64,000 bases of DNA, taken from the NCBI GenBank assembly GCA_965237785.1, contig OZ250159.1, positions 2,382,204 to 2,446,203 of the forward strand, written 5' to 3'. Shown here in pieces: positions 40,269 to 61,822 of this stretch; position 1 is the stretch's first letter; every line of letters starts with the position of its first letter. The stretch comes from Candidatus Rariloculaceae bacterium (lineage in GTDB: Bacteria > Pseudomonadota > Gammaproteobacteria > Steroidobacterales > Rariloculaceae). The translations under genes were made by a program, and so were the position numbers. The notes beneath the pieces were generated by a model that saw nothing but the letters and a program-made list of their open reading frames with translations, was not told where the DNA came from and ran no database searches.

Positions 40269-40859
40269 CTAGCGCCGCTGCGGCCGTATGATCGGTTCAC
40301 CGCGCAGCTTCTTGGCCAACAGTAACTTGCCCCCAATCTTGTACTCCCGCTTGAAGTCGCTTGGCCGACGGATTTTGTGGTGCTCAGTACGGACGTACGC
40401 GCTTTCGACGTAGAGCCTCAAGAAATTGCTGCTCTGGCGAGTCACGTCGAAATAGACCTCATAGACCAGATTCCGCCCTTGGGGATCCAGAATCTCTATT
40501 GCCAGCCAATTGCGATGGCCGGTGAAGTAACACGTTCGACCCGATGGAAGCGACCGTATGATTCCCGGCAAATTCGCCGACCAGCGGTACCGATCAATGC
40601 TAAAGCATCGCTCATTGCCTCGCTCATCAATGACCAGGCAGTCGTGTCCTATCTCAGCAAAGTCAAGTCGCTCGCCACTTGGAGGGCCAGTGGTCACGCA
40701 ATGGCTGCTGTATTGGATCAAAATACCGGCATTGATTTCAGGGTGGCGCTTAGTAGCGGGGATGGTGAATTTAATGTTCGAGTTCTGTAGGTGCCGCAGA
40801 TCATAGATATGACCAGCAACTTGCTTGGAGCCGGCCAGCTTGATTTGACGCCAATGCAC
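40269..40859 (-). CDS. Hypothetical protein (196 aa), orphan gene of islet C
   Basis: Clean ORF with its own terminator and lower G+C (32/60 at 40561-40620). No motif I recognise. Basic C-terminal tail (KKLRGEPIIRPQRR). Confidence 0.5.
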   Translation of the reverse strand: MHWRQIKLAGSKQVAGHIYDLRHLQNSNIKFTIPATKRHPEINAGILIQYSSHCVTTGPPSGERLDFAEIGHDCLVIDERGNERCFSIDRYRWSANLPGIIRSLPSGRTCYFTGHRNWLAIEILDPQGRNLVYEVYFDVTRQSSNFLRLYVESAYVRTEHHKIRRPSDFKREYKIGGKLLLAKKLRGEPIIRPQRR

Positions 40860-41073
40860 CGTGTGTCGCGTGATCTATGGTAGGCCCGTACTCGGGAGTG
40901 CAGGAGTGGCGTCTTGCACTTCCGAGAGTAGTGCGCGAACCGTGAGTCCCTGTTTGCTCTTCGGCCAGAATGCAAGCCCAACACGAATATCCCCCGGTCC
41001 GGCGGCGCCGGCAAGGCGGAAATTTCGACAAAACGGGGGGATTCGCAAGCACAGGTGAGTTGCGCCCCCTGGA

Positions 41074-41159
41074 GCCGCCAATCCGTTGCTGGTAGAACTT
41101 CCTGCGGCCCAATTGCACAATACATCGACCAACCCTGGCTGACAGGACAATTGCGATGA
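41074..41159 (+). pseudogene. Decayed 3' remnant of tctA retaining native junction to the prpF-like gene
   Basis: Aligns to 40001-40087 (...ELP..LIAEYVDQPWLTGQVR* versus ...YIDQPWLTGQLR*) with a 1-nt indel upstream. It ends in an ATGA overlap with the prpF-like start (41156). Confidence 0.55.
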
Positions 41160-42274
41160 CGCAGCGTGCGATTCCATGCATGTTCATGCGCGGCGGAACG
41201 TCCCGCGGTCCGTTTTTCCTGCTCGACGACCTGCCGGCGGATCCCCAGGTTCGCGATCGCGTGCTGCTGGCCGCCATGGGCTCGCCCGACCGGCGCCAGA
41301 TCGACGGACTAGGGGGCGCCGATATGTTGACGAGCAAGGTGGCGATGGTTAGTCCGTCGGAACGGCCGGGTATTGATGTTGACTATCGGTTCGCGCAGGT
41401 GTGGCTCGACAAGGCCATCGTTGATACGTCGCCCTCCTGCGGGAACATGCTCGCCGGCGTTGGACCGTTTGCTATTGAACGCGGGCTGGTGACTGCGGGC
41501 GGGGACGAGACACGGGTTCGTATCTTTGATGTCAACACCGGGAGCCGGATTGAGGCTATCGTCCAGACGCCGGGTGGGACGGTGACGTATGCCGGCGATG
41601 AGCGTATTGATGGGGTGCCGGGCACCGCGGCGCTGATTATGCTCAACTTTACTGATGTGGTGGGGTCCAGGTGCGGCGCGCTGTTGCCGACCGGCGCAGT
41701 TCAGGAAGAAATCGATGGGGTGCCGGTCAGTTGCGTCGATGTGGCCATGCCGATGGTGATTATGCGCGCCGGGGACCTGGGCCTCAGCGGCTACGATTCG
41801 GGTGAGATCACCGGCAATTCGGTCCTCATGCAACGAATTGAGAAGATAAGGCTTGAGGCCGGACGCCGTATGCGGCTCGGCGATGTTGCCGAATCGATCA
41901 TCCCCAAGGTCGGTATCCTGGCACCGCCGCGGCGTGGGGGCGCGGTGTATTCGTGTTACCTGACGCCGCACCACGTCCATGCCGCCCATGCGGTGACCGG
42001 CGCGATCTGTGTGGCTTGCTGTGCGGCGATCCGGGCGACCGTTGCGGGCATTGTTGCCCGGCCACCGGCAAGGCGAGGAATCGGGCCTGCCGCGAACGCC
42101 GTTGAGACCGTCCGCATCGAGCATCCTTCCGGTACCATCGACGTACGCCTGGAAACGGAGGGAGACAGTGCGGAATTGCAGGTTCGGCGTGCCGGCATTG
42201 TTCGCACGTCACGGAAGATCATGGATGGCAGGGTGTTCGTGCACGAAAGAGTCTGGTCGCAGCCTCGCTCCTGA
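41156..42274 (+). CDS. PrpF family protein (AcnD-accessory / 4-oxalomesaconate tautomerase-like isomerase)
   Basis: The N-terminus IPCMFMRGGTSRGPFF and SPSCGNMLAGVGPFA are characteristic of PrpF/GalD. Confidence 0.85.
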   Translation: MTQRAIPCMFMRGGTSRGPFFLLDDLPADPQVRDRVLLAAMGSPDRRQIDGLGGADMLTSKVAMVSPSERPGIDVDYRFAQVWLDKAIVDTSPSCGNMLAGVGPFAIERGLVTAGGDETRVRIFDVNTGSRIEAIVQTPGGTVTYAGDERIDGVPGTAALIMLNFTDVVGSRCGALLPTGAVQEEIDGVPVSCVDVAMPMVIMRAGDLGLSGYDSGEITGNSVLMQRIEKIRLEAGRRMRLGDVAESIIPKVGILAPPRRGGAVYSCYLTPHHVHAAHAVTGAICVACCAAIRATVAGIVARPPARRGIGPAANAVETVRIEHPSGTIDVRLETEGDSAELQVRRAGIVRTSRKIMDGRVFVHERVWSQPRS

Positions 42275-42940
42275 ACGCATCCGGCAGGCGTAGTAGGAAA
42301 GCACGTCAGCTTAGACAAAGCGGATGCATTCGCGGTCAAGGTAGCGCGGGCGGCCCACGTTGAGCAAGGCGAAGAAGTCTTAGCCTAGAGATTGGCACAG
42401 CAGGCAGCGTCAGCGCCGAAGGGGGGTGCGGTCGCGTTGAAGTTCAAGGAGGCGCTTTCCTGTTTCGCGACGGATTTATCGTTTAGACTCGACAACTACC
42501 GTTCCACGATCGACCCCCAAGAGGAAAGGGATCGTCGGGATTCGTAGCGACGAACAACGAATAACCGAATAGTTAGGAACCCAGATGCATTCGGCTTCCG
42601 GGAAATCAATAGCCAACAATCGCGGCGCATGGCGTGGCGAGTCCGCCCGGGTTGCTGAGCATGCCCATGTCAACGGCACGGTCACGATTCTAGCACGCCT
42701 TCTCTGCAGTTCCGTGCAGTGCAATGCATCAGTACTGCCGCTAGGGATCCAACAATGAAAGCGGACATAAAGTCGGCAATTTTTTTGGTGGAGCGATTGA
42801 ACTAGGAAACGCGTTTACGCAGGAAACAAGACGTCGAGCAAAGTTGATTCTGCTTGACAGTTGCCGCCGCCATTTACCGTTTGATGAGAACAGCAGCATA
42901 TTGATACATCAACCATAGACGATATGACTGAGGTTACCAA

Positions 42941-44065
42941 GTGCAGTTATATCAGACGCTGATCAGTCAACCAGAACACGCGCCGCCAGAGTGGAAGATC
43001 GCATGCACTCATAGCGAATCGACGTTGCATCAACTTTCGCCATATATTGGTAAGTTGAAGAGCTCAATCGCATACGATTTGATCGCAGCGTACTCAAGAA
43101 AAGGAGATGTGATCGCGGATGTATTTTGCGGCAGCGGTACGATCCCTCTGGAATCTGCGCGAATGGGACGACGTGTGTTCGCTTCCGATGCGAGCCTCTA
43201 CGCAATAGCGCTAACTAAAGGGAAATTGCGTGCTCCAGATAGCTTGGATGCGGCATTCGCAACCTTGGATAAATGTCTATTGGCAGCACGATCATATCAA
43301 GTGGACCTCCAAGACGTTCCAAAATGGGTTTGCGACTTCTATCACCCGAAAACGCTTAAAGAAACTCTAGGGCTGTTCTCTGTGCTACGTAAGCGTAGAG
43401 AATATTTTCTGCTAGCCTGTCTGCTTGGTATTTCACACCACCAACGCCCAGGCTTCTTATCATTTCCCAGTAGTCATCTTGTTCCATATTTGCGGTCAAG
43501 AAAGTATCCTAGAGACGATTATCCCGAATTGTATGAGTACCGTCCCGTGGAACCTCGTATTCGGGCAAAGGTTGAACGCGCACTAAGACGGTACGAAAGA
43601 ATCGATCCACGCTTGATTCTAGGCGTTCGGCGATCCACAGTACAATTTCTGAGCCCGCCGACAATGGTAAATTGTTTCATTACGAGCCCTCCTTATATGA
43701 ACGCCCTCGATTATGGGCGAGATAATCGGCTTCGAAATTGGTTGTTGTCCGGAAACACTCAGGAGCGAATGGACAGAGGACTCTCCGATGATGAGGGATT
43801 TCGTCGCATGATATCATCATATGCCCGAATACTTACGAAAACATTAGTAATGGGAGGTAAATGTGTGTTCGTGGTAGGCGAAAAATCCAAAAGAAAAACT
43901 GACAGGTTTCCGTCGGAGACTATTTCTGAAATAATGGATCACTTGGCACCAAGTTTGCGACTTGAAGAAATCATAAGTGATAGTATCCCTGACATTAGAC
44001 GTTCGCGGCGCCATCTAACCGGTGTGCGGACAGAAAACATTTTAGTTTACGAACGAAACTCTTAG
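42941..44065 (+). CDS. DNA amino-methyltransferase (N6-adenine or N4-cytosine), motif I before motif IV
   Basis: GDVIADVFCGSGTIPLESARMGRRVFASD (AdoMet motif I region) lies about 180 aa before CFITSPPYMNALDY (motif IV, SPPY). GTG start behind GAGG. Low G+C. Confidence 0.8.
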   Translation: MQLYQTLISQPEHAPPEWKIACTHSESTLHQLSPYIGKLKSSIAYDLIAAYSRKGDVIADVFCGSGTIPLESARMGRRVFASDASLYAIALTKGKLRAPDSLDAAFATLDKCLLAARSYQVDLQDVPKWVCDFYHPKTLKETLGLFSVLRKRREYFLLACLLGISHHQRPGFLSFPSSHLVPYLRSRKYPRDDYPELYEYRPVEPRIRAKVERALRRYERIDPRLILGVRRSTVQFLSPPTMVNCFITSPPYMNALDYGRDNRLRNWLLSGNTQERMDRGLSDDEGFRRMISSYARILTKTLVMGGKCVFVVGEKSKRKTDRFPSETISEIMDHLAPSLRLEEIISDSIPDIRRSRRHLTGVRTENILVYERNS

Positions 44066-44066
44066 T

Positions 44067-45803
44067 ATGAGAAAGAACCTGCCGGATCCGGACCATTTCT
44101 TAGGGGTAATTCTACCTCAATTCCAAAATTATCGAATTGTTGAGAGGGTCGGTTCAGGGTTCAACGGACACGTTTATCGAGCACATTCAAAGGAGATAGA
44201 GGGTGATTTGGCGTTCAAGTTTGTGCCGACGGAAAATCTTCCGGCGGACCCAGAGCGACGCGGCATCTACTTGGCGGAGGCAAAAAAGGCTAACTCGCTG
44301 GAGAATGAATGTGTTGTCCGATACGTAGAAGTTCTACCCTGGGAGGATGATGCGTTACGCCGAACTTTTGTCGTATTTGTATGTCAGTATGTATCAGGCA
44401 CCTCTTTGCAGGAATTCATAAAGAAGAAGCGTAACGAAATTAGCGTCGCCTTTATAGAAACATTTTTGAGGACGATGTTTGGCTTGCTCTTTGAACTCGA
44501 TCAGCGCGACATGGAACATGGAGACCTCCATGCTGGAAATGTACTTGTATCACAATCGAAATATAGTCTTAGCGGCGAGGCAACATTCAAAGTCACTGAC
44601 TTCGGAATCACCGAAATAACCGGTATGACTCATACCAGCGATTATTTGTTCGTGGCCCGAATACTTAGGGATTTGCTAAAGCGCACTAACTACCATGAAC
44701 AGCAATCGCGTGATCGGTACGTATACGATATTTTGCGACTTGACTTTTTGGGACGGCATCTCATAGAAACGGATCCATTGGCGGACCCATTGGCGCGCAA
44801 TCCGCGAAATCTAAATAAAAAACTACTGTCGGTTGATGACGAGTTTCTCGAGGCTACAAAAAATCATACAGTGACCAAAATGGTCACTCCGTTTGACTAT
44901 CCTAATTGCGAACAAATGGGTAATTCCCATCTGCTGATGAGGAACTTATATTCGGATCGACTATTAGGATTAAGGGAAATTCGTGCTAGGTCAAACCTAG
45001 TGCTCACTGGCCCACGAGGTTGTGGAAAAACAACTGTCTTCCGTGCGTTGAGTCTGGACTATCTGACCTCTGTCGATGCCGATGGTCCAGCAAGGCTCCA
45101 ATTCTCTGGTGTCTACTATCGTTGCGACGATTTGTATTTTTCTTTCCCACGCTATGAATTGCCGAAACGGCCAGACGCAATCGACATTCCGATGCATTTT
45201 GTTGTTGTTAGTCTAATGGCTGAAACGTTGCGCCATGTAGGTGCTTGGGCAAAAGGGCATTTCGAGCCAGAGTTTCGCAAAAAAGAGTCTACGGTAACTG
45301 CAAAGCTGTGGAAAATTTTAGGTTTCACGCAGCCTACTGATCCCGCGGCACGTGGCTTTTCACCTTTGATTGCGAAACTCATGAAACAGCGAGCTAGAGC
45401 GGCGAAGAAGCAACGTCTTTGCCATCTGCCTGGTCAGCCAATTAAAGGCTATCTTGGCCCTAGAGCGCTAGTCGATTTTTGTGGGGAACTAATTTCGACA
45501 TTTTCTTTTCTGCGTGAACGACCGTTTTTCTATTTTATCGATGATTATTCGACACCAAAAATTACATCGGACCTACAGCTAAATCTCAATAGGCTATTTA
45601 TGCATCGAAGCTGCGATGTGTTTTTCAAGCTTTCTACAGAGAGTCCAATTTCGTTCGAGCGTCGAGATATTGATGGTAAACAATTCGTTGAAGAGCGCGA
45701 ATTTGATCTGTTAAATTTAGGGTTACGTTATCTTGGGCATAATGGCATGCAAGTGCAGGTCTTCCTTGGGGATCTTTTCGAACGTCGTTTTCGAGAGGTG
45801 TAA
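44067..45803 (+). CDS. Ser/Thr protein-kinase-like domain fused to P-loop (AAA/ORC-like) NTPase
   Basis: Kinase motifs: GSGFNGHVY, LAFKF, HGDLHAGNVLV, KVTDFGITE. NTPase motifs: Walker A LTGPRGCGKTT and Walker B-like FFYFIDDY. The ATG lies 1 nt after the MTase stop. The ORF ends at TAA 45801-45803, which is followed by a same-frame ORF. Confidence 0.75.
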   Translation: MRKNLPDPDHFLGVILPQFQNYRIVERVGSGFNGHVYRAHSKEIEGDLAFKFVPTENLPADPERRGIYLAEAKKANSLENECVVRYVEVLPWEDDALRRTFVVFVCQYVSGTSLQEFIKKKRNEISVAFIETFLRTMFGLLFELDQRDMEHGDLHAGNVLVSQSKYSLSGEATFKVTDFGITEITGMTHTSDYLFVARILRDLLKRTNYHEQQSRDRYVYDILRLDFLGRHLIETDPLADPLARNPRNLNKKLLSVDDEFLEATKNHTVTKMVTPFDYPNCEQMGNSHLLMRNLYSDRLLGLREIRARSNLVLTGPRGCGKTTVFRALSLDYLTSVDADGPARLQFSGVYYRCDDLYFSFPRYELPKRPDAIDIPMHFVVVSLMAETLRHVGAWAKGHFEPEFRKKESTVTAKLWKILGFTQPTDPAARGFSPLIAKLMKQRARAAKKQRLCHLPGQPIKGYLGPRALVDFCGELISTFSFLRERPFFYFIDDYSTPKITSDLQLNLNRLFMHRSCDVFFKLSTESPISFERRDIDGKQFVEEREFDLLNLGLRYLGHNGMQVQVFLGDLFERRFREV

Positions 45804-45833
45804 GATTTTCCCTGTAAGACACTTGTAGAACTC

Positions 45834-46565
45834 TTGGGTGAAAATGAGAGGAATGAAAACGAAGCTGCGAGGCGCATTCGAGAGAAAAAACGTCATACTA
45901 ACTATTTTGGCGTTCAGACCGTCACCGCAATGTGCAGTGGGGATATTCATTACATGATCCGACTCGTTGGGAAGATGGTCGAGGACGCGGGTGAAATTTC
46001 CGTTGGGAACTACAATCCCAGTGAGCCAAGAATATCGCGCGCACAGCAATCAGGCACTATTCGAAGAGCGGCCGGTGAGTTTATGGAATCAGTGCGTAAT
46101 TTGCCGAAGCACGGAGATGCACTTGCTGCGACCGTAAGTGCGATCGGAAATGTCGCGAGTTCATATTTACGATATCGTGATGCAGCTAACGAAAAGGGCA
46201 ATCCTCCTCATCAAGCATCGAGAATTGAACCGTATGAGCCGCTAGTTTTGTCTTCGGACGCGCGCGATCTATTGAATGACTTGATTCGATTTTCGATTTT
46301 GTTGATGGATCCTCGCGGTAAGAGTCGTCGCGGAGGAGTTGTACCTCGCTTTTATCTCAGGCGATATTTGATTCCCCATTTTAATCTAACGTTCAGTAAG
46401 AGGGATTCTCTTGAGCTTGAAAATAGAGATATTGAACTGCTCCTAACGAATCCCGATGTATTTTACGACCAAAAACGCATTAAGAGCTCCAAAGATCCAC
46501 GAGCCACTAAGTGGGAGGATCAGTTCCAAGCAAGATTATTCGATGAGGGTAACAATGAGCAATGA
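45834..46565 (+). CDS. Hypothetical protein; same reading frame as 44067-45803, likely the C-terminal part of the NTPase
   Basis: The frame is identical to the upstream ORF, and only one stop (TAA) plus 10 sense codons separate them. The track start is TTG. The sequence is helical and basic (..MCSGDIHYMIRLVGKMV.., ..RFYLRRYLIPHFNLTFSKRD..). Confidence 0.5.
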   Translation: MGENERNENEAARRIREKKRHTNYFGVQTVTAMCSGDIHYMIRLVGKMVEDAGEISVGNYNPSEPRISRAQQSGTIRRAAGEFMESVRNLPKHGDALAATVSAIGNVASSYLRYRDAANEKGNPPHQASRIEPYEPLVLSSDARDLLNDLIRFSILLMDPRGKSRRGGVVPRFYLRRYLIPHFNLTFSKRDSLELENRDIELLLTNPDVFYDQKRIKSSKDPRATKWEDQFQARLFDEGNNEQ

Positions 46566-47595
46566 AGAAATTCCGAACATGCCGCTCAGATTGGATGAAC
46601 AGCTTTCCAAAATGAGTTGGTCGGAAATGGTACCGATTGATGACATTTCACTAGGTTCAGAGGATTGTATTGTTGTTGCTGCAGGCTTTGAGGATAGGGC
46701 TTTGTGCGGACTTAAACGAGCGTATCAGGCGTCTATGAATTTTCACGTTATATTGGTTCGATATCTTCCCAAGATCGCGGAGAACCAAGGTTTGGCTAGT
46801 ATCGAATATTGTAAAGAGCACGGCCTAGACTTCAAGGAATTTGTGTATGATCGGGAGAGTCCCTCAGGTATGGGTCTTTTGCTCGCGGAATATGTGTCGC
46901 GCTTTAGTAAAGTATTTGTGGATATTTCTGGAATGTCTCGGCTGCTAATTGTACAAATCATTGTAGCTTTGGTTAGGCAGAGAAAAGAGTTTAATATTTT
47001 ATACGCCGAGGCTGAAACTTATCCGCCCCTTGAACAAGAATATAGGGAATCTAATGCAGTAGAAAATTTAAACCCGTCGTTTATTTCCAGTGGAATTTTT
47101 GAGGTCGTTTCGACCCCAGAATTAAGTTCAGTCTCTATGTTGGGAGGTGCCATTCGGTTAATTTCATTTCCAACATTTGACTATATGCAGCTGTCAAATC
47201 TGGTCCAGGAGATTCAGCCGACTCACAACGATGTAGTCCATGGTGTACCTCCGAGCAGAGAAATGTCTTGGAGGACTGCCGCGATCGACCAATTGAACGA
47301 ACCGATAATAGAGGCGCTTCAGCGCGTGACGATTCACAGGGCAAGTACTCTAGACTATCGTGATACTCTGAATCTAATACTGGATCTTTATGGTCGTTAC
47401 TCGGTGTTTGATCGGATCATAATCGCCCCAACTGGGAGCAAAATGCAATCAGTGGCAATCGGTATTTTGCGGGGAATCTTAACAGATTTACAAATTGTGT
47501 ATCCGACGCCACTAAAGTTTGTTGATCCGGACCACTATACAGAGGGGATAAAACGAATTTATTGCCTTGAAGTTGGGGATTTATGCCACTCGTAG
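46555..47595 (+). CDS. Hypothetical protein with Rossmann/CARF-like N-terminal pattern
   Basis: ATG 46555 (MSNEEIPN) overlaps the upstream stop by 11 nt. IVVAAGFEDRA ... VFVDISGMSRLLIVQIIVAL resembles the Csa3-type CARF pattern GF(D/N)E ... DxT/SxGxR, recalled from memory. A second alpha/beta unit contains IIIAPTGSKMQSVAIG. Confidence 0.5.
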   Translation: MSNEEIPNMPLRLDEQLSKMSWSEMVPIDDISLGSEDCIVVAAGFEDRALCGLKRAYQASMNFHVILVRYLPKIAENQGLASIEYCKEHGLDFKEFVYDRESPSGMGLLLAEYVSRFSKVFVDISGMSRLLIVQIIVALVRQRKEFNILYAEAETYPPLEQEYRESNAVENLNPSFISSGIFEVVSTPELSSVSMLGGAIRLISFPTFDYMQLSNLVQEIQPTHNDVVHGVPPSREMSWRTAAIDQLNEPIIEALQRVTIHRASTLDYRDTLNLILDLYGRYSVFDRIIIAPTGSKMQSVAIGILRGILTDLQIVYPTPLKFVDPDHYTEGIKRIYCLEVGDLCHS

Positions 47596-48135
47596 AGCTA
47601 GTAAGCTTGATGAAAATGGCGGGTTGACATCACAGCTGTTTTTGAATTAAGCGTTTTTCTTAGTCATCCTGAAATTGACCCGATATCGCAAGAACGCCCA
47701 ACTACCTGCAGAGGATTAAGTGAAGCCGCTTCTGGTTTGTTTCTCTGTTTGTACTTGCCCTACTAGTCTGCAATGAAGGGCAGTGGGTGCGGCCGCCTGT
47801 TGGCGCCCACCAAGCTTCGGGCGTTGTGGTCTGACGAATGTTTGGTAGTTCGCCTAGTACCGATATTCTGTCAGGTTACCTGCGCCTCTTTCAATGTTTT
47901 GTATGGATGCGTAAGCACCGACACCTGTGGCAGAGACCAGAGGCGGGGTATAACACCTCAAACGATCCTTCATGGGCCGATAAGAGCAATCAGTAGAATG
48001 CCACGTCGCTTTGAGGTTCGTCACCTCCAATATGGTCAATTTTGAATCACCGAATGATCAGTGTTCAGTCGGCGTTAAGATGCAAGCGCATTAGTTGAGT
48101 TGCGTGGCCGTTGACGTTCTCTAGAATGGGAAACG

Positions 48136-48768
48136 ATGGATATTCATATGGACTGGCTTTACCTAGCCTCATATTCGCCACGGCGGCGCGAACTGCTGGC
48201 CGGACTCGGCTACCGTTTCAACGTACTTGACGCCCGCGTTGATGAAAGCCGAGTGGCTGGTGAGTTGCCCTCGCGCTATGTTAAGCGGCTGGCGCGGGAA
48301 AAAGCGCTTGCGGGCTTTAGACTTGTTTCGTGTCAGCCGATGACGGCTGGAGACGAATTGGTTCGCCCGGTGGTGGTCGGGGCTGATACGGCCGTGGTCG
48401 TAGACGGTCGGGTTCTCGGCAAACCACGGGACGAAGCCGAGATCCTGACCCACCTGCAATGGCTTTCTGGCCGGGCTCACGATGTCCTCTCAGCCGTGGC
48501 CGTGGTTTCCGGGAACACCGCGTCACCCCGGCTTGAAGTGCGCATATGCCCAAGCCGAGTGTGGTTTCGCACTTTGACGGCAGCCGAATGCGAAGCCTAT
48601 CGGGCCACCGGGGAACCCGTAGACAAGGCGGGGAGCTATGCCATCCAGGGACTAGCCGCCGCCTTCGTAACGCGCCTAGAGGGCAACTGGAGCGCAGTGG
48701 TCGGACTGCCCTTGCCCGACACTGTGGAACTGCTTGAGCGAGCGGGAGTACCGTATCTAAAGTCATAA
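48136..48768 (+). CDS. maf: Maf family nucleoside-triphosphate pyrophosphatase
   Basis: LASYSPRRRELLAGLGY...VVGADTAVVVDGRVLGKP...KAGSYAIQG, typical Maf. The start is 48136 or 48148. Confidence 0.85.
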   Translation: MDIHMDWLYLASYSPRRRELLAGLGYRFNVLDARVDESRVAGELPSRYVKRLAREKALAGFRLVSCQPMTAGDELVRPVVVGADTAVVVDGRVLGKPRDEAEILTHLQWLSGRAHDVLSAVAVVSGNTASPRLEVRICPSRVWFRTLTAAECEAYRATGEPVDKAGSYAIQGLAAAFVTRLEGNWSAVVGLPLPDTVELLERAGVPYLKS

Positions 48769-48953
48769 GAGCGAACAACGGAGGTGGAGACGGTGTGGTT
48801 TGTGAGTGATTGTTCGCGTTGCCTCACGACAATTAAATCTTTCGGCGGTGAAAGAAATAGTTGACGCTGGCCACACTGTGCCGGGAACGGGATGGGAAAT
48901 CTGCTAACGGTCAAATTTAGTTATCACGACCCAATTTTGAAGCAAAGCGTTCA

Positions 48954-48988
48954 TCACGCTGCCTCCATTTCGTTTACGGCTGGCTCTA
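48954..48988 (-). pseudogene. Displaced original 3' end of hsdS (cut off by IS630)
   Basis: Joining ...GAAGCAC|TA (right flank of the IS) to the left flank continues the hsdS frame as ...REALEPAVNEMEAA* with TGA at 48956-48954. Confidence 0.6.
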
Positions 48989-49073
48989 GTACACCAACAA
49001 CTTTGAAATGATCGATACTTCATGTAGACTCTCAAATTTGAATTACAACCTATTAATAGTTGGGAGTTTTAAT

Positions 49074-49532
49074 ATGATGAAGAAGTACAAGGTGACCTTA
49101 ACGACAGAAGAGCAGGCGATGCTAAGGGACTTGGTGTCCGTGGGCAAAGCCGCCGCCCGCAAGATCACGCACGCCAGAATACTGTTGCTGGCGGATGAGC
49201 ATTCGGAGGACGGCAACCAGACAGACGATGCGATCGTCAGGGCGTTGCAAGTCGGCTCCGCGACCGTCGCTCGGGTTCGCCGTCGTTTTGTGGAACAAGG
49301 CCTCGAAGCGGCATTGAATCGCCAGTTTCAGCGTAACCGCAGAGCCAAGAAATTGGATGGCGAGGGCGAGGCGTTTCTGGTGGCGACGGCCTGTTCGGAG
49401 GCGCCGGAGGGACGCACATCCTGGACATTGAGGTTGTTGGCGGATCGGCTGGTCGAATGCAACATTGTCGATTCCATCAGTCCCGAGGCGGTGAGACAGA
49501 CGCTAAAAAAAACGAACTTAAGCCTTGGTTGA
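49074..49532 (+). CDS. IS630 transposase, N-terminal HTH part (orfA)
   Basis: MMKKYKVTLTTEEQAMLRDLVSVGKAAARKITHARILLLAD... is typical of the IS630/Tc1 HTH region. It ends shortly after the A8 run at 49505-49512. Confidence 0.8.
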   Translation: MMKKYKVTLTTEEQAMLRDLVSVGKAAARKITHARILLLADEHSEDGNQTDDAIVRALQVGSATVARVRRRFVEQGLEAALNRQFQRNRRAKKLDGEGEAFLVATACSEAPEGRTSWTLRLLADRLVECNIVDSISPEAVRQTLKKTNLSLG

Positions 49533-50209
49533 AGGACTGCTGGTGCATTGCGCCGAAACGCAATGCCGACTTCGTCTGCGCGATGGAGGATGTCCTGGAA
49601 GTGTATCGGCGTGATTTTGCCGAGGACGAGGTCCTGGTTTGCATGGATGAAACGAGTAAGCAACACATCAAGGAAACCCGCACGCCGACGCCGACGCGAC
49701 CGGGCGATGCGGCGAAATACGACTACGAATACGAACGCAATGGCGTCAGCAACCTGTTCATGCTGTGCGCACCGCTGGAGGGTTGGCGGCATGTCAAGGT
49801 GACGGACCGTCACACGAAGGTCGATTGGGCGGAATTGATCGAGGAATTAGTGGACGACCATTTCCCGGAGAAACGCAAGATCGTGTTGGTGATGGACAAT
49901 TTGAACACCCATAAATTGTCCTCGCTCTATGAAGCCTTCGACCCGGCGAAGGCGCGCCGGATAGCCGAGCGGCTGGAAATTCATTTCACCCCCAAGCATG
50001 GCAGTTGGTTGAACATGGCTGAAATTGAAATCGGCGTCATGGCGCGTCAATGCCTTAATCGCCGCTTGGGAAACCAACGCATCCTGAGAAGCGAAATTGA
50101 CGCATGGCGGAAACAGCGCAATGAGGAAGCCACGCGCGTCAACTGGCGCTTCACAACGGATGATGCACGCACGAAGTTGAAGTCACTTTATCCATCAATA
50201 CAAAGTTGA
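49457..50209 (+). CDS. IS630 transposase, DDE catalytic part (orfB, -1 frame relative to orfA)
   Basis: ...KKNELKPWLKDCWCIAP..., VCMDETS, LVMDNLNTHK and HGSWLNMAEIE give the DDE triad context. The functional protein needs a -1 shift in the A8 run. Confidence 0.8.
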   Translation: MQHCRFHQSRGGETDAKKNELKPWLKDCWCIAPKRNADFVCAMEDVLEVYRRDFAEDEVLVCMDETSKQHIKETRTPTPTRPGDAAKYDYEYERNGVSNLFMLCAPLEGWRHVKVTDRHTKVDWAELIEELVDDHFPEKRKIVLVMDNLNTHKLSSLYEAFDPAKARRIAERLEIHFTPKHGSWLNMAEIEIGVMARQCLNRRLGNQRILRSEIDAWRKQRNEEATRVNWRFTTDDARTKLKSLYPSIQS

Positions 50210-51852
50210 CGTAGTACTAGTGCTTCCCGAAGGAGTGATTCAAGGAGGTAATGGCGGCCAGTATCGACAGTATCAAGACTGGCTTCCAGTCGGTCGCACA
50301 GGGTCATGAGTTCATCGACTTTGGCGACAATGCGCCGCTGCTCCGCGAGGGGCGGAACAGCGACTACTATACGATCCATTTTGTACTTTGGGAGGCCACC
50401 ACGTCCTGCGCCGGTCTGCTCGTCGAAGATAAACGCTTGGAAATACGGTGATAGCACGAGTTGTTGAAGGAAGTCAGCCATTTCAGAAACTGCTGGGCGA
50501 ATTATGGAAACGTGCTGGCTGACATTGGCTTCGCTAAATTCGTCGGGCACGAAACAGCAACGACCCATAGAGCCGCCCGTAATGTTCAGAAGGATGTCCC
50601 TTGATCGAACTGCAGTGCCCGCCATTCGAGCGTGAACGTCGGGTTCAATGTAGGCTACATCGTCGAGTCGCAGACCATCGTTATACACATTTTGCGAGCG
50701 AAGGAACGGAACACCAACTTTCTTATATACGTTCTTGCCACCGCGCGGAGTGCTACCAGAACCGGTTTTGGTGCAAAGCTCACCAATCCGGCTCCAGAGC
50801 CAACCCACCGGAAGAGAAAATGGGATTTCGTCCGTGCTAAGCGGCTTCACGTGGTGCCGAACTTTCAGCCGCAATTTTTCCCCGGCGATCCGCTTCAGCA
50901 GTTCCGACGCCGGTTCATTCGCCGGATCCTGCTCCACCAGCTTGCCCCGCACGGCAAGGTCGAGAATGGTCTGGCGTAGGCGTTTGACCTGATGCGCGCG
51001 AGCTGCTAGTGCGGGAAGGGCATCGACGACGAAACGCGCATGGGATCGAAAAGTGACATCATCCGTATTGGATACCCTTAGGCGAGCATAGCTCGCGTTG
51101 GTCAGCCGGTCGCGGGCGTCCTCGCGCGCGACGCGAGCTTCTTCCAGCCGGTCGCACAGGGCCATGAGTTCATCGACTTTGGCGACGATGCGACGCTGCT
51201 CGGCGAGGGGTGGAAGCGGAATCATGAAATCTCTGTAGTCCCTACTCTCAATGCGGCATGTTCCATGGCTGGATCGCTTAACTCGCTTCAGTACTTGTAG
51301 CTTTAGGCCCTTCAGGGCGCGAAGCAAATACTCAGCCATTTCGGGTTTCTTCAAGGTGATAGCTTTCACGTCCTGATTTATCGTGAGCGGAACGCGAGAG
51401 ATTGCAACAGGGAAGCTGTGCGCAAGGATCATGCCGCGGACCACAAAGAGGATGCTTTCCGCTTCGATAAGGTTTACCGCAGAGCTTGCGATGGACGTCT
51501 CCGTGATATTCAACTGTGTTTCTGCGATGTAATCGACCTTCATATCCTTGGGGGAAACCCAAGGTATGCTGCCGTTCCAGAAGTCCTCACGAGCCTTGGA
51601 AGGAGTTCCACCACCCTTGAGCATTCCAAGGGCGCGAAGTCGCGACCATCGCCAATTCGGCGGGACTGGAAACGGCGGCTCTAAATCGTGAGGGATCGTT
51701 GGGTCAAGACGAGGCGGTGGCTCATCCTCCGGGTCCTGCTCCACCAGCTTCCCCCGCACGGCGAGATCCAGCACAAAGCGACGAAGGTGCGGGACGGCAT
51801 CCGGTGCATCGGCCACCCGGTCGAAATGGGCAAGCAGGTGTTCGGCGTTCAT
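50188..51852 (-). CDS. hsdS: Type I restriction-modification specificity subunit HsdS (3' end altered by IS630)
   Basis: Two TRDs separated by duplicated conserved regions (LDLAVRGKLVEQDP.. twice; PLAEQRRIVAKVDELM.LCDRLE twice). The last 10 codons (50188-50217) are IS-derived (VLRQLCIDG*). Confidence 0.85.
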   Translation of the reverse strand: MNAEHLLAHFDRVADAPDAVPHLRRFVLDLAVRGKLVEQDPEDEPPPRLDPTIPHDLEPPFPVPPNWRWSRLRALGMLKGGGTPSKAREDFWNGSIPWVSPKDMKVDYIAETQLNITETSIASSAVNLIEAESILFVVRGMILAHSFPVAISRVPLTINQDVKAITLKKPEMAEYLLRALKGLKLQVLKRVKRSSHGTCRIESRDYRDFMIPLPPLAEQRRIVAKVDELMALCDRLEEARVAREDARDRLTNASYARLRVSNTDDVTFRSHARFVVDALPALAARAHQVKRLRQTILDLAVRGKLVEQDPANEPASELLKRIAGEKLRLKVRHHVKPLSTDEIPFSLPVGWLWSRIGELCTKTGSGSTPRGGKNVYKKVGVPFLRSQNVYNDGLRLDDVAYIEPDVHARMAGTAVRSRDILLNITGGSMGRCCFVPDEFSEANVSQHVSIIRPAVSEMADFLQQLVLSPYFQAFIFDEQTGAGRGGLPKYKMDRIVVAVPPLAEQRRIVAKVDELMTLCDRLEASLDTVDTGRHYLLESLLREALVLRQLCIDG

Positions 51853-52205
51853 TTTCCCGGCGGTTCCAGTTCGGCAAGCAGCGCCTGCACGACATTGCGC
51901 AATTGCGGCAGGCTGCTGGATGCATAAAGCCAGACGAGTCTCGGCGCTACATCGTCATAGCCATGGGCAAGAAAGTTCCGAAAGTCGACGATGCGACGCA
52001 TCCCGGGAATCTTCTTGGCAAGTTCGGGATGATCCTTGTGCAGGCGGTTTACCGCCTCGCCAATAATTTCGAACTTGCGCTCAACCGCAGCCTGCGTTCG
52101 CGTATCGGCAGCGAATGCGGCGCTGTCCATGCCGTCGGTGAAAATTTCGATATCGGCGCCTGCCTGGTCGATATCCGTCAACAATACACGAGCGTCACGA
52201 CGCAT
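51849..52205 (-). CDS. hepT: HepT-like HEPN (DUF86) toxin
   Basis: Start ATG 52205 (MRRDARVLLTDI...). Rx4H motif FRNFLAHGY. ATGA overlap with the hsdS start, and an 11-nt overlap with mntA. Confidence 0.8.
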   Translation of the reverse strand: MRRDARVLLTDIDQAGADIEIFTDGMDSAAFAADTRTQAAVERKFEIIGEAVNRLHKDHPELAKKIPGMRRIVDFRNFLAHGYDDVAPRLVWLYASSSLPQLRNVVQALLAELEPPGK

Positions 52206-52512
52206 AAACAACTTCGCGCGATTCGTTGATGGAGGCACGCAGATACGGGTTGCGGAACTCGTGATTTTCGACCATGTCGACCGGGCGCCCCAATGCCTCA
52301 CGCAGCTCGTCGACAAGGCCGAAGAACTGTTCGAGAGGCGGCAGATCGCTGTTGGGATCGAACTCGACAAGGAAGTCGGCATCACTTGTGTCGGGATTGA
52401 AATCCGTCCCGCGCGCCGCCGAGCCGAAGACCTCTAGCCTCGCCACGTCGTAGCGCCGGCAGACTTCGGCCAGTTCTTCCCGTTTGTCAGCAATGGCAGC
52501 GTGCATGTTCAA
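52195..52512 (-). CDS. mntA: MntA-like minimal nucleotidyltransferase antitoxin
   Basis: NTase motif LEVFGSAARGTDFNPDTSDADFLVEF (GSxxRG...DxD). Confidence 0.8.
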   Translation of the reverse strand: MNMHAAIADKREELAEVCRRYDVARLEVFGSAARGTDFNPDTSDADFLVEFDPNSDLPPLEQFFGLVDELREALGRPVDMVENHEFRNPYLRASINESREVVYAS

Positions 52513-52551
52513 CCCTCCCGCTTCGGCGGCAAACTGTGCCCTTCCACGGCG

Positions 52552-54003: not shown

Positions 54004-54005
54004 GC

Positions 54006-57108: not shown

Positions 57109-57903
57109 ATGCCGTTTGACCAAGCCCGGACCGAGCTCGTCCTTCAATTCGCACTGTTGGTCGCTGGCGAAGAAGATAGCCCTTTTGATCGCCAGCTCGG
57201 GCCAATTCACTTGCTCAAGTACGTCTATCTCGCCGACTTGGTGAATGCGCGTCGAAACGATGGAAAGGTCTTTACCGGCGCGGATTGGCGTTTCCACAAG
57301 TTTGGTCCCTGGTCCAATGCGATACATGAAGTTATTGATCCGGCGCTACGAAAGATCGGAGCAGAAAAGCTGGAGTTCGCGAGCGATTACGGAGAAGACG
57401 ATTGGGTCCGATACTCGGTTCGAGATGATCGCCTGCTAACCGAAAAGGGACGCTCGCTTCCAACTTGGATTGCGATGGAACTACGCCGTGATATTCATAA
57501 GTTTGGCAAGGACACGCCGGCATTGCTGGATTATGTATACAAGACCAAACCGATGCTTTCGGCCAGCCCGAATGACTATCTTGATTTCTCGCTCGAAGTG
57601 GAATCCTTCACCGAGATGATGCGAGAACGGCAGCAGCTAAGAGTCGACAAACTATCTGCAAGAAAAAGAAAACGATTCAGGGAGCGGCTTGGAAAACTGC
57701 GAAATGAGCAACAGCGAAGAAAAACGGTACGCCCGAATCTGCTGGATCCCGTTGCGAGCCCCAGGCACGACGATATCTACGAGGAGGGAATAGCTTGGCT
57801 TGATCAACTTGCCGGTCCTCAGTTAGAGAGCGGGGACTGTTTGGTCGAGTTCTCTGGGGAAGTCTGGAATTCTCCCACGCGTAAGAGGGGAGATGTTTCC
57901 TGA
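57109..57903 (+). CDS. Panacea/DUF4065 (SocA/GepA-like) antitoxin-domain protein
   Basis: IHLLKYVYLADLVNARRNDGKVFTGADWRFHKFGPWSNAIHEVI fits the DUF4065 core (KLxKLLYxAD...G...W..GPV). The C-terminal region is basic coiled coil. Confidence 0.65.
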   Translation: MPFDQARTELVLQFALLVAGEEDSPFDRQLGPIHLLKYVYLADLVNARRNDGKVFTGADWRFHKFGPWSNAIHEVIDPALRKIGAEKLEFASDYGEDDWVRYSVRDDRLLTEKGRSLPTWIAMELRRDIHKFGKDTPALLDYVYKTKPMLSASPNDYLDFSLEVESFTEMMRERQQLRVDKLSARKRKRFRERLGKLRNEQQRRKTVRPNLLDPVASPRHDDIYEEGIAWLDQLAGPQLESGDCLVEFSGEVWNSPTRKRGDVS

Positions 57904-58603: not shown

Positions 58604-58662
58604 CGTGAAATTGGAGCAATCCCGCATCCTGCGCTCTTCCTGTTCAAATCAACTGCAGCTGA

Positions 58663-61626: not shown

Positions 61627-61822
61627 TGCTTGGTAGCTTAGAAATAGGGATGGAACAAAAAAGGGATTTGGCTTTGTATCGGATATGCAGGAGGCTGGTA
61701 AATGAGGCGGTTCGTACTTTTAGGCTCCGGTCGTGAGTTGTCCCGTACACATTCTTTACCGTGCGGATATTCCGAATAGAATTCTCGCGCGAAGCGCAGG
61801 GCACTAAATCCAAGGCAGTAAA

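What the first reader, a model, noticed from the sequence alone, without database searches (positions are those of the whole stretch)
42941..47595. Low-GC operon MTase + kinase::P-loop NTPase (+ same-frame ORF) + Rossmann/CARF-like protein: candidate undescribed methylation-linked defence system
Seen in sequence:
- Four co-directional ORFs are tightly packed. TAG 44063-65 is followed by ATG 44067, the ORF2/ORF3 junction is in the same frame, and there is an 11-nt overlap at 46555-46565.
- The block's G+C (24/60 at 43021-43080) is far below the flanks (40/60 at 14461-14520).
- ORF1 has FCGSGT (motif I) about 180 aa before ITSPPY (motif IV), so it is an amino-MTase.
- The ORF2 N-terminus carries a complete, apparently catalytically competent kinase motif set: GSGFNGHVY, AFKF, HGDLHAGNVLV and VTDFG.
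- The ORF2 C-half has Walker A GPRGCGKTT and Walker B-like FFYFIDDY.

Known: MTase plus Ser/Thr kinase plus ATPase is the logic of Pgl/BREX type 2 (PglX, PglW, PglY). There the kinase and ATPase are separate proteins and a PglZ phosphatase is part of the core. I see no PglZ-, BrxC- or obvious nuclease-like ORF here.

Inference: this is a compact self/non-self methylation module. The kinase::NTPase fusion would be the sensor or switch, and the last ORF a ligand sensor or effector. A type I R-M, HepT/MntA, a Panacea TA and a helicase/nuclease pair lie within the next 16 kb, which fits a defence island.
Basis: partly seen in the sequence, partly recalled or inferred. Interest (0 to 1): 0.9.

Follow-up and report, generated by a model that had tools for sequence, protein, structure and literature searches.

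The report
Methylase, kinase-ATPase, CARF-like defence cassette
A horizontally acquired three-gene cassette (a DNA-methylase-like enzyme, a protein kinase fused to an ORC/Cdc6-type ATPase, and a CARF-like sensor protein) recurs in the same order across many bacterial phyla, often beside restriction-type and toxin genes, and is probably an uncharacterised modification-linked immune system, but the copy here has a stop codon in its central gene.

Summary
Every sequence observation checks out: coordinates, motifs, junctions and the G+C drop. The "four ORFs" are three genes. ORF2 and ORF3 are one 832-aa gene (Ser/Thr-type kinase plus ORC/Cdc6-like AAA+ ATPase) split by a single G-to-T nonsense change at 45801. 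A 99.93%-identical sister assembly reads GAA there and has the gene intact. The order methylase, kinase-ATPase, 346-aa CARF-like protein is kept in 58 of 70 genome loci from many phyla, and cassette G+C is below the flanks in 47 of 47 loci tested. Flanking genes differ from locus to locus; restriction-type helicases, methylases and PIN toxins are the commonest. A divergent branch replaces the methylase with a DruA/Mom-family gene, which suggests that a nucleic-acid-modifying partner is the constant requirement. The cassette is not BREX/Pgl or MADS, because their defining proteins are absent and the profile scores fail. The kinase–AAA+–CARF module is already catalogued: Makarova 2014 described a fused "small family", and PADLOC carries a CARF6 STK_AAA model. 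I found no description of the methylase-linked cassette and no experimental work on it. The defence role and the mechanism are inferred. No nuclease or cyclase is present, so the kinase is the presumed output. I rate it a new variant of a known kind, moderately interesting, and probably inactive in this genome.

The parts
42941..44065 (+). Gene 1: 374-aa amino-methyltransferase. Motif I (FxGxG, residues 62-66) lies N-terminal and motif IV (SPPY, residues 249-252) C-terminal, the reverse of the order in the beta-class enzyme TTHA0409.
   Evidence: Pfam N6_N4_Mtase scores 37.3 bits against a cut-off of 26.7. The PDB sequence match to 2zie has its two halves swapped. F62/G64/G66 and S249/P250/P251/Y252 are 98-100% conserved in 63 family members. 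A homologue sits directly upstream of the kinase-ATPase gene in 58 of 70 loci.
44067..46565 (+). Gene 2: 832-codon kinase plus ORC/Cdc6-like AAA+ ATPase, here split into ORF2 (44067-45803) and ORF3 (45834-46565). Kinase, residues about 20-190. Walker A GPRGCGKTT, 315-323. Walker B DD, 492-493. C-terminal helical bundle plus a possible winged helix, about 580-832.
   Evidence: Homologues are about 830 aa. Pfam ORC-CDC6-like covers profile positions 26-303 in ORF2 and 403-571 in ORF3. K51, D153, N158, D178, K321 and D492/D493 are invariant in the 16-sequence alignment A1. The best Foldseek hit for the C-terminal part is Orc1/Cdc6 2qby_B at E 0.048, which is only suggestive.
45801..45803 (+). In-frame TAA nonsense codon (Glu579 to stop) that splits gene 2.
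   Evidence: The sister assembly L073 is 99.93% identical over 13,041 bp and reads GAA here, with an intact 832-aa gene. The family consensus reads through this position.
46555..47595 (+). Gene 3: 346-aa protein with two Rossmann-like halves, CARF-like, and no recognisable effector domain. It overlaps gene 2 by 11 nt.
   Evidence: PADLOC CARF6--CARF_STK_AAA at E 3.5e-15 (residues 7-340 against profile 862-1184 of 1187) and CARF6 stand-alone models to 5.4e-10. AF2 model with pLDDT 77.8 and pTM 0.83. Foldseek to the CARF domains of Csa3 (6wxq_A, 2wte_A, rmsd 3.2) and Cam1 (8t66, rmsd 4.1-4.2) at E about 4e-4 to 1e-3. D123-x-S125-x3-R129 after the strand at 119-123 fits the CARF signature [DN]X[ST]XXX[RK].
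42800..48100 (.). Low-GC block (about 0.45) carrying the cassette, between PrpF (41156-42274) and Maf (48136-48768).
   Evidence: Composition. Flanking genes. No tRNA, integrase or flanking repeats at this site.

Best explanation
This is one copy of a widespread, horizontally mobile three-gene cassette.

Genes:
- Gene 1 is an amino-methyltransferase, presumably acting on DNA at N6-adenine or N4-cytosine.
- Gene 2 fuses a catalytically complete Hanks-type kinase core to an active ORC/Cdc6-like AAA+ ATPase with a C-terminal lid and a probable DNA-binding winged helix.
- Gene 3 is translationally coupled to gene 2 and is a two-lobed CARF-like nucleotide-sensor protein without an effector domain.

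Most likely mechanism (inferred):
- The methylase marks the host's nucleic acid.
- The ATPase module engages DNA and, together with the CARF-like partner, reports unmodified or foreign DNA or an infection-derived nucleotide ligand.
- ATP-dependent assembly then switches on the kinase, whose phosphorylation of host or phage targets arrests infection. This would be an abortive or growth-arrest outcome, because no nuclease is present.

In this window the system is probably disabled, or at best split, by a Glu579-to-stop mutation in gene 2.

Shown: gene content, motif integrity, conserved synteny, mobility signature, replacement of the modification gene, and the nonsense mutation.
Inferred: the defence role, a DNA substrate, the sensing logic, and the kinase as the output.
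For: - Synteny: all three genes occur in the same order in 58 of 70 genome loci, from many phyla plus one MAG labelled archaeon. Seven of the other 12 loci are cut by contig ends.
- Identities of the three proteins fall in parallel across loci, so they are inherited as a unit.
- Tight coupling: a 1-nt gap and an 11-nt overlap in the window. In other loci the methylase match ends a few bases before the kinase gene starts.
- Catalytic residues of the kinase, Walker A and B, and methylase motifs I and IV are invariant or nearly so.
- Cassette G+C is below its flanks in 47 of 47 loci, on average 0.485 against 0.579.
- Neighbours vary, with 105 Pfam families among 124 flanking ORFs. The commonest are ResIII, SNF2, DNA methylase/DUF1156, PIN and AbiEii-like families; integrases and transposases also occur.
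- In the window a type I R-M with nested HepT lies within 3 kb of the cassette's end.
- A divergent branch (22-26% identity, same GPRGCGKTT P-loop) keeps the kinase-ATPase and CARF-like genes but has a DruA/Mom-family gene in the methylase position. This holds in at least 6 independent loci.
- L044 has a conventional beta-class methylase instead.
- CARF assignment rests.
- Rare fusions of the CARF-like domain to a histidine kinase or a calcineurin-like phosphoesterase fit a sensor-input role.
- Nonsense mutation.
Against: - There is no experimental evidence for defence, methylation or kinase activity anywhere in this family.
- No nuclease and no cyclase, Cas10 or CD-NTase is in or constantly beside the cassette. 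Both the ligand of a CARF-like protein and the killing step are therefore unexplained.
- The Pfam kinase match stops at profile position about 150 of 263, with no canonical C-lobe. The substrate need not be a protein.
- The methylase segment between motifs I and IV is the most conserved part of the protein (0.94 mean column identity). R-M and BREX methylases usually vary here. This fits a fixed or non-DNA substrate as well as it fits self-marking.
- The winged-helix assignment is not statistically significant.
- Structural matches of ORF4 to CARF domains are weak (E about 1e-4, TM 0.25-0.3 on the query) and mixed with generic Rossmann hits.
- The cassette was absent from 50,697 phage records and nearly absent from 72,556 plasmid records, so its vehicle is unknown.
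Confidence: 0.55

Rival explanations
1. It is a selfish addiction (toxin-antitoxin-like) module rather than an immune system. The kinase-ATPase would be toxic unless the methylase, or the DruA-like enzyme, keeps the genome or another target modified. The cassette would then persist through post-segregational killing, like a nuclease-free R-M system.
For: - Mobile and low-GC, with patchy phyletic spread.
- No nuclease.
- The modification gene is always retained or replaced.
- Central-gene disruptions occur: the nonsense codon here, and apparent truncations or insertions in L043, L055, L064 and L067. That is expected if the kinase-ATPase is costly.
- From my own knowledge, not checked here: Streptomyces Pgl has been described as toxin/antitoxin-like, with methylase, kinase and ATPase activities.
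Against: Addiction and defence are not mutually exclusive. The neighbours are mostly defence genes rather than plasmid-maintenance genes, and the cassette is almost absent from sequenced plasmids. A dedicated CARF-like sensor is hard to explain in a pure addiction module.
Confidence: 0.15
2. The methyltransferase does not mark DNA. It modifies RNA, a protein or a nucleotide-like small molecule, and the cassette is a signalling pathway in which the CARF-like protein senses that product, or an infection-derived nucleotide, and controls the kinase-ATPase.
For: - The inter-motif segment of the methylase is invariant across phyla.
- ORF1 also hits RNA-methylase families in the motif I region: UPF0020 at 32.6 bits, and Trm14 weakly.
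- The kinase lacks a canonical C-lobe and also hits families of atypical or small-molecule kinases: ABC1, APH, Kdo and TCAD9.
- CARF domains are nucleotide-ligand sensors (PMC4012209).
- No cyclase is present.
Against: The SPPY motif with Pfam N6_N4_Mtase above its cut-off, and the best PDB match to a DNA modification methylase, favour DNA. The replacement gene hits the DruA family and, in L069, the phage Mu Mom DNA-modification family. L044 carries a classical DNA methylase in that role.
Confidence: 0.12
3. It is a housekeeping or regulatory module of a mobile element, for example epigenetic or replication control by an ORC/Cdc6-like initiator with a kinase, and has no role in conflict with phages.
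For: ORC/Cdc6-type ATPases are replication initiators in archaea, and the best structural hit for the C-terminal part is Orc1/Cdc6 on origin DNA. Integrases are often nearby.
Against: The cassette is not linked to a constant element, integrase or origin-like repeats, and the flanks differ in every locus. The CARF-like partner and the modification enzyme are typical of conflict systems. The commonest neighbours are restriction helicases, methylases and toxins.
Confidence: 0.08
4. It is a reduced or divergent member of an already named system: BREX type 2/Pgl, or MADS.
For: It shares the methylase, Ser/Thr kinase and ATPase logic. ORF2 hits PADLOC mad6 (E 3.8e-16) and ORF1 hits mad2 (E 2.3e-6). 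PglW also combines kinase and ORC/Cdc6-like domains (PMC12839542).
Against: - The hits cover only the generic kinase core (mad6 profile 50-208 of 659) and the methylase motif I region.
- NCBIfam MAD6 scores 20.5 bits against a cut-off of 460.
- MADS detection requires MAD6, MAD7 and MAD8. There is no MAD7, and mad8 matches only the P-loop.
- No PglZ, PglX, BrxC/PglY or BrxD match appears, even at E 0.1 for the ATPase part.
Confidence: 0.05

Closest known systems
Kinase–AAA+–CARF fusion family (Makarova et al. 2014, PMC4012209; PADLOC-DB model PDLC01925 'CARF6--CARF_STK_AAA', carrying a 'CARF6' clade label whose source paper I could not read)
   Same: The same three modules occur in the same order. 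The kinase comes first, then a distinctive AAA+ ATPase with an arginine inside the P-loop (GPRGCGKTT here), then the CARF domain. ORF2, ORF3 and ORF4 match the 1187-position profile collinearly at positions 42-356, 627-671 and 862-1184.
   Different: Here the CARF part is a separate, translationally coupled gene. No N-terminal Zn ribbon is present: no CxxC was found in the N-termini of the 950-aa relatives, and the 830-aa proteins have only about 20 residues before the kinase. No wHTH follows the CARF-like part. The 2014 text calls it a small family and mentions no methylase or DruA-like partner. This cassette family is large and always has one.
Pgl / BREX type 2 (PglX methylase, PglW kinase, PglY/BrxC ATPase, PglZ)
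   Same: It combines a DNA-methylase-type enzyme, a Ser/Thr-type kinase and an ORC/Cdc6-class ATPase in one defence-island operon. PglW itself carries kinase plus an (inactive) ORC/Cdc6-like domain, according to PMC12839542.
   Different: No PglZ is present. No PglX, BrxC or BrxD profile match was found. The ATPase here is catalytically intact and fused directly to the kinase. There is no NERD nuclease. A CARF-like partner is present. The unit is three genes and about 4.7 kb, against much larger BREX loci.
MADS (methylation-associated defence system, mad1-8; bioRxiv 10.1101/2023.03.30.534895)
   Same: Methylation-associated logic with a kinase (mad6) and ATPase components. [quoted passage not shown]
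   Different: MADS has eight genes, and MAD6, MAD7 and MAD8 are mandatory for detection. Here only generic kinase-core and P-loop similarity exists, and NCBIfam MAD6 scores 20.5 bits against a cut-off of 460.
CARF sensors of type III CRISPR (Csa3, Cam1, Csm6/Csx1)
   Same: Rossmann-like fold, the [DN]X[ST]XXX[RK] loop after strand 4, and weak structural matches to Csa3 and Cam1 CARF domains.
   Different: No Cas10 or other cyclase is nearby. No fused nuclease, HTH or pore effector is present. The partner is a kinase-ATPase.

Membership tests
BREX type 2 / Pgl | PglZ alkaline-phosphatase-family protein in the locus | tested here: not met
   The cassette has only three genes. None hits PglZ in Pfam or PADLOC. 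The flanking genes are PrpF and Maf.
BREX type 2 / Pgl | BrxC/PglY-type ATPase and PglX-type methylase | tested here: not met
   A PADLOC scan of the ATPase part at E <= 0.1 gives only P-loop-length hits (mad8, PtuA, GajA, IetA) and no BrxC, PglY or BrxD. The 25 ORF1 hits shown (of 43) are generic MTase_II and DUF1156 motif I matches, with no PglX.
MADS | MAD6, MAD7 and MAD8 all present (mandatory in the authors' detection model) | tested here: not met
   NCBIfam MAD6 scores 20.5 bits against a cut-off of 460. PADLOC mad6 aligns only to the kinase core. mad8 aligns only to about 28 residues of the P-loop. There is no mad7 hit.
CARF superfamily (clade labelled CARF6 in PADLOC-DB) | Rossmann-like core with the [DN]X[ST]XXX[RK] loop after strand 4, and a profile match to CARF models | tested here: met
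   D123-I-S125-G-M-S-R129 follows the predicted strand at 119-123. D123 is invariant, and S125 and R129 are at least 90% conserved. PADLOC CARF6 models score E 3.5e-15 to 1e-7 over nearly the full length. Foldseek hits to Csa3 and Cam1 CARF domains are weak, E about 4e-4 to 1e-3. Pfam Csa3_N is below its cut-off at 14 bits against 27.
CARF superfamily (clade labelled CARF6 in PADLOC-DB) | Binds a cyclic oligonucleotide or other nucleotide ligand | not testable with these tools
   No ligand-generating enzyme was found in the cassette or its neighbours. This needs biochemistry.
Kinase–AAA+–CARF fusion family (Makarova 2014) | S/T/Y kinase, then an AAA+ ATPase with arginine in the P-loop, then CARF, in that order | tested here: met
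   GPRGCGKTT with R317 invariant. Collinear match of ORF2, ORF3 and ORF4 to PDLC01925. Here the module is split into two genes rather than fused.
Kinase–AAA+–CARF fusion family (Makarova 2014) | N-terminal Zn ribbon and a wHTH after the CARF domain | tested here: not met
   No CxxC pairs occur in the N-termini of the 950-aa relatives, and the 830-aa proteins have no N-terminal extension. The ORF4 model ends with the second Rossmann-like half.
ORC/Cdc6-like AAA+ ATPases (Pfam PF24389) | Profile match above the curated cut-off, with intact Walker A and B | tested here: met
   80.2 bits (ORF2) and 61.0 bits (ORF3) against a cut-off of 27, together covering profile positions 26-571. K321 and D492/D493 are invariant.
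ORC/Cdc6-like AAA+ ATPases (Pfam PF24389) | C-terminal winged-helix DNA-binding domain | tested here: inconclusive
   The AF2 model of the C-terminal 253 aa has pLDDT 64.7. The best Foldseek hit is Orc1/Cdc6 2qby_B at E 0.048, and the PadR/MarR-type hits are not significant.
Amino-methyltransferases (N6A/N4C, Pfam N6_N4_Mtase) | SAM-binding motif I (FxGxG) and catalytic motif IV ((S/D/N)PP(Y/F)) | tested here: met
   Both motifs are present and 98-100% conserved in 63 sequences. Pfam scores 37.3 bits against 26.7. The domain order is permuted relative to TTHA0409 (2zie).
Amino-methyltransferases (N6A/N4C, Pfam N6_N4_Mtase) | The substrate is DNA at a specific sequence motif | not testable with these tools
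   This needs methylome data. The inter-motif segment is unusually invariant.
Hanks-type (eukaryote-like) protein kinases | Gly-rich loop, VAIK Lys, alpha-C Glu, HxD...N catalytic loop and DFG | tested here: met
   G31, K51, E71, H151/D153/N158 and D178-F-G are invariant in the 16 sequences of alignment A1. Pfam Pkinase scores 50.7 bits against 31.7. The match ends at profile position 150 of 263, so a canonical C-lobe was not detected.
Classical type II restriction-modification | Cognate restriction endonuclease next to the methylase | tested here: not met
   No nuclease domain was detected in any cassette protein, and no constant fourth gene exists across loci.

The most novel reading that the evidence does not exclude
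This would be a widespread, nuclease-free and cyclase-free immune system. An active ORC/Cdc6-type ATPase would read the modification state of DNA. A stand-alone two-lobed CARF-like protein would gate a fused kinase effector. The self-marking enzyme would be interchangeable, either an amino-methyltransferase or a DruA/Mom-family modifier. That would place CARF-type sensing outside CRISPR and CBASS, wired to protein (or nucleotide) phosphorylation instead of nucleases.
Probability: 0.35. Interest if true: 0.8.

Novelty: new variant of a known kind. Interest (0 to 1): 0.58.

Why it matters
If the cassette is a working immune system, it would be one of the smallest modification-linked systems, at about 4.7 kb and three genes. 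It would also tie together three themes usually studied apart: epigenetic self-marking, Ser/Thr-kinase signalling, and CARF-type nucleotide sensing.

- It has no nuclease and no cyclase. Working out what the CARF-like protein binds and what the kinase phosphorylates could therefore reveal a new trigger or a new output.
- The swap between a methylase and a DruA/Mom-family gene offers a handle on what DruA-family proteins do. As far as I know their function is still unclear.
- The family is common in uncultured lineages, including sponge and worm symbionts and soil phyla, where defence repertoires are poorly charted.
- For this genome the practical message is narrower: the copy is probably knocked out by one nonsense mutation.

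Tried and rejected
- Four-gene reading: rejected. ORF2 and ORF3 are one gene.
- Programmed read-through or recoding at the TAA: rejected as unnecessary. A 99.93%-identical assembly has GAA there.
- BREX/Pgl or MADS membership: rejected on profile tests.
- A constant fourth (effector) gene: I suspected one from large downstream ORFs in several loci. They proved heterogeneous (DUF1156 methylase, ResIII or SNF2 helicases), and a census of 124 flanking ORFs found no shared family beyond 9 of 124.
- Integration-site signatures: no tRNA in the window and no meaningful flanking repeats.
- Promoter and terminator scans gave counts no higher than shuffled sequence.
- Internal duplication in ORF4 (tandem CARF): hhalign of the N-half against the C-half gave E 0.32, not significant, although the DISGMSR and PTGSK loops align.
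- PDB sequence search with the ORF4 family profile gave no hit even at E 10.
- Phage and plasmid collections: no phage hit, and one weak ATPase-only plasmid hit.
- Literature: the Makarova 2020 CARF classification is not in the held library. Searches combining CARF, kinase, methyltransferase, ORC and AAA+ returned only a 2026 BREX survey that does not describe this cassette. A DruA/Mom search was uninformative.

Full report
**1. Observation**

- The junctions are TAG then ATG with one base between, and an 11-nt overlap.
- The two 60-base G+C counts are exact, 24/60 and 40/60. The cassette is 45.3% G+C against 62.8% for the 12 kb to its left.
- All quoted peptide motifs are present.
- Pfam supports them above curated cut-offs: N6_N4_Mtase for ORF1, and Pkinase plus ORC-CDC6-like (PF24389) for ORF2.

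**2. ORF2 and ORF3 are one gene**

- PF24389 covers profile positions 26-303 in ORF2 and 403-571 in ORF3.
- The 120 homologues of ORF2 listed (841 database clusters at E <= 1e-5) are almost all 805-845 aa.
- The family consensus reads straight through the window's TAA at 45801-45803.
- A second public assembly of the same locus (L073) has the same PrpF, Maf, IS630 and type I R-M surroundings. It is 99.93% identical over 13,041 bp, with 9 substitutions and no gaps.
- L073 has GAA (Glu579) where the window has TAA, and its gene is called as 832 aa.
- The unit therefore has three genes. This copy carries a recent nonsense mutation, or an assembly error, that separates the kinase and AAA+ core from the C-terminal third.

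**3. What the three proteins are**

*Gene 1, the methylase*
- It has motif I (F62-x-G64-x-G66) about 185 residues before motif IV (S249-P-P-Y252).
- Both motifs are 98-100% conserved in 63 family members.
- Its best solved relative is the beta-class modification methylase TTHA0409 (2zie), matched with the two halves in swapped order. It is therefore a permuted amino-methyltransferase.
- Unexpectedly, the segment between the motifs (residues about 160-185) is the most conserved part of the protein.

*Gene 2, the kinase-ATPase*
- It has every catalytic kinase residue invariant in a 16-sequence alignment: G31, K51, E71, H151/D153/N158 and D178-F-G.
- The kinase profile match ends after the DFG motif, at profile position 150 of 263.
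- The ATPase has an invariant GPRGCGKTT Walker A, with an arginine inside the P-loop, and a DD Walker B.
- The C-terminal 253 residues model as a helical bundle followed by a small alpha/beta unit, with pLDDT 64.7.
- The top structural hit for that part is archaeal Orc1/Cdc6 on DNA at E 0.048. This suggests a lid plus winged helix but is not significant.

*Gene 3, the CARF-like protein*
- It has no match above Pfam's cut-off (Csa3_N 14 bits against 27), and no NCBIfam or PDB sequence match.
- It matches PADLOC's CARF6 models over nearly its whole length, E 3.5e-15 to 1e-7.
- Its AF2 model (pLDDT 77.8, pTM 0.83) shows two Rossmann-like halves.
- The low-rmsd structural hits are the CARF domains of Csa3 and Cam1, at E about 4e-4 to 1e-3, among generic Rossmann folds.
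- The loop D123-I-S-G-M-S-R129 after the strand at 119-123 fits the published CARF signature [DN]X[ST]XXX[RK].
- No effector domain is present.

**4. Conservation and context**

- A scan of one genome per species returned 70 loci, from Proteobacteria, Nitrospirota, Acidobacteriota, Verrucomicrobiota, Planctomycetota, Chloroflexota, Actinomycetota, Myxococcota, Spirochaetota, Bacteroidota, several candidate phyla and one MAG labelled archaeon. Many are sponge or worm symbionts.
- In 58 of the 70 loci all three genes are present in the same order and orientation.
- Of the other 12, seven are cut by contig ends, one is truncated, and four have a different first gene.
- Identities of the three proteins decline together across loci.
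- Cassette G+C is below its flanks in 47 of 47 loci tested.
- The two ORFs on each side in 31 loci (124 ORFs) belong to 105 Pfam families with no constant partner.
- The commonest flanking families are ResIII (9), SNF2, Helicase_C and DEAD helicases (5 each), and N6_N4 methylases, DUF1156 and PIN (4 each). NOV_C, AbiEii-like ATPases and integrase cores follow with 2 each.
- Individual loci also show integrases, transposases, KAP NTPase, RES toxin and type I R-M genes.
- In the window, Maf, an IS630-type transposase and a type I R-M with a nested HepT toxin follow within 3 kb of the cassette's end, and a GajB-like helicase lies further on.
- The ORF4 family comprises 942 clusters at 50% identity at E <= 1e-3 (197 at <= 1e-30) among 1.84 billion representatives.

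**5. The informative variant**

- A divergent branch of the kinase-ATPase is about 950 aa and 22-26% identical. It has the same GPRGCGKTT, HxDLHxGN and DFG motifs.
- It keeps the CARF6-like downstream gene but has a DruA-family (PF14236) gene where the methylase should be. The L069 copy also hits the phage Mu Mom family.
- This holds in L069, L070, L072, L074, L076/L077 and L078.
- L044 has a conventional beta-class DNA methylase on the other strand.
- Non-orthologous replacement of the first gene, with the other two held constant, argues that a nucleic-acid-modifying partner is the functional requirement. This is the best computational support for modification-linked logic, but it remains an inference.

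**6. Comparison with known systems**

- BREX type 2/Pgl and MADS share the methylase, kinase and ATPase theme, but membership fails.
- For BREX/Pgl there is no PglZ, PglX, BrxC/PglY or BrxD match, even at E 0.1 for the isolated ATPase part.
- For MADS, NCBIfam MAD6 scores 20.5 bits against a cut-off of 460. MADS detection requires MAD6, MAD7 and MAD8, and here only a generic kinase core and a P-loop align.
- The closest described entity is the "small family" of Makarova et al. 2014. [quoted passage not shown]
- PADLOC-DB's CARF6--CARF_STK_AAA profile (1187 positions) matches ORF2, ORF3 and ORF4 collinearly.
- The window's genes are thus a split version of that module, without the Zn ribbon or terminal wHTH, and with a dedicated modification gene.
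- The 2014 text does not mention a methylase partner. I could not obtain the 2020 CARF classification, so I cannot exclude that the linkage was noted there.
- NCBIfam (June 2026) has no model for ORF3 or ORF4.
- Full-text searches found no paper describing the cassette.

**7. Mechanism**

*Shown*
- A conserved, translationally coupled, mobile three-gene unit with intact catalytic motifs.
- An interchangeable modification gene.
- A CARF-like partner that is fused to the kinase-ATPase in a related family.
- Rare fusions of that partner to a histidine kinase or a calcineurin-like phosphoesterase, as expected for a sensor input domain.

*Inferred*
- The methylase marks self nucleic acid.
- The ORC/Cdc6-like module binds DNA and, with the CARF-like protein, senses unmodified DNA or an infection-derived nucleotide.
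- ATP-driven assembly activates the kinase as the output.

*Weak points*
- There is no nuclease or cyclase.
- The kinase has no canonical C-lobe, so the substrate may not be a protein.
- The methylase "specificity" segment is invariant.
- The winged-helix and CARF structural evidence is weak.
- There are no experiments.

*Rivals*
- An addiction module.
- A non-DNA methylation and signalling pathway.
- Mobile-element housekeeping.

**8. Verdict**

- The cassette is real, conserved and not a named system by the tests I could run. Its core module was already catalogued, and this copy is probably inactive.
- I rate it a new variant of a known kind (modification-linked kinase/ATPase defence, CARF6 STK-AAA family), with interest 0.58.

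Noticed in passing
window 50188-56483 (- strand): A type I restriction-modification operon: hsdS 50188-51852, hsdM 52552-54162, hsdR 54006-56483. A HepT toxin ORF (51849-52385) is nested between hsdS and hsdM. In the sister locus L073 the called genes are a HepT and MntA (NTP_transf_2) pair.
   Followed up: partly
window 49008-50209 (+): An IS630-type transposase in two overlapping frames: HTH part 49008-49532 and DDE_3 part 49457-50209. It sits between Maf and the type I R-M.
   Followed up: partly
window 57109-63160: A UvrD/GajB-like helicase with Top1-type zinc-ribbon matches (58663-61626, - strand) lies next to a 445-aa ORF (61823-63160, - strand) with no Pfam or PADLOC hit. Two further ORFs (57109-57903 and 57893-58603, + strand) also have no hit. 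This may be another defence pair, and no GajA-like partner was detected.
   Followed up: partly
window 25780-28164 (- strand): A second low-GC stretch (0.49-0.50) holds ordinary metabolic genes: a zinc alcohol dehydrogenase and an acyl-CoA dehydrogenase. Low G+C in this window is therefore not specific to defence genes.
   Followed up: partly
L007 1415-12546; L012; L019: In several genomes the cassette sits between components of another system. An SNF2 helicase with a NOV_C nuclease-like domain lies upstream, and a DUF1156-type methylase lies immediately downstream. That is a nested arrangement of defence systems.
   Followed up: partly
P0322 (724 aa), P0356 (670 aa): Rare proteins carry the ORF4-like domain at the N-terminus fused to a calcineurin-like phosphoesterase (Metallophos) or to a histidine kinase (HisKA plus HATPase_c). 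This fits a ligand-sensing input role. I did not check whether they are true fusions or gene-calling artefacts.
   Followed up: partly
window 43418-43495 (ORF1 residues about 160-185): The segment between methylase motifs I and IV (consensus GISHHQRPGFLSFPSSHLVPYLR) is the most conserved part of the protein across phyla. DNA methylases of R-M systems usually vary in this region. I have no explanation for it.
   Followed up: no
L043, L055, L064, L067, L014, L028 (matches around 6001-9740): Several other genomes appear to carry disrupted copies of the kinase-ATPase gene: longer-than-expected match spans that suggest insertions, truncations, or fragmented matches. I did not verify them individually. 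Together with the nonsense codon here, they suggest the central gene is often inactivated.
   Followed up: no
L069 4327-5250; L070 4442-5446; L072 818-1690; L074 3106-4011; L076 3111-4004; L078 3048-3989: The DruA-family genes that replace the methylase in the divergent cassette branch hit Pfam DruA, and one also hits the Mom family. The one copy scanned (L072) has no PADLOC hit, so it may be distinct from Druantia DruA proper.
   Followed up: partly
window 40554-53595 versus L073: There are nine substitutions between the window and the sister assembly. Six fall in the 5.1 kb from 42134 to 47187. Four of the five inside the cassette genes change the protein: F268L in ORF1, E579* and S816W in gene 2, and I211M in ORF4. 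The sample is too small to interpret.
   Followed up: partly
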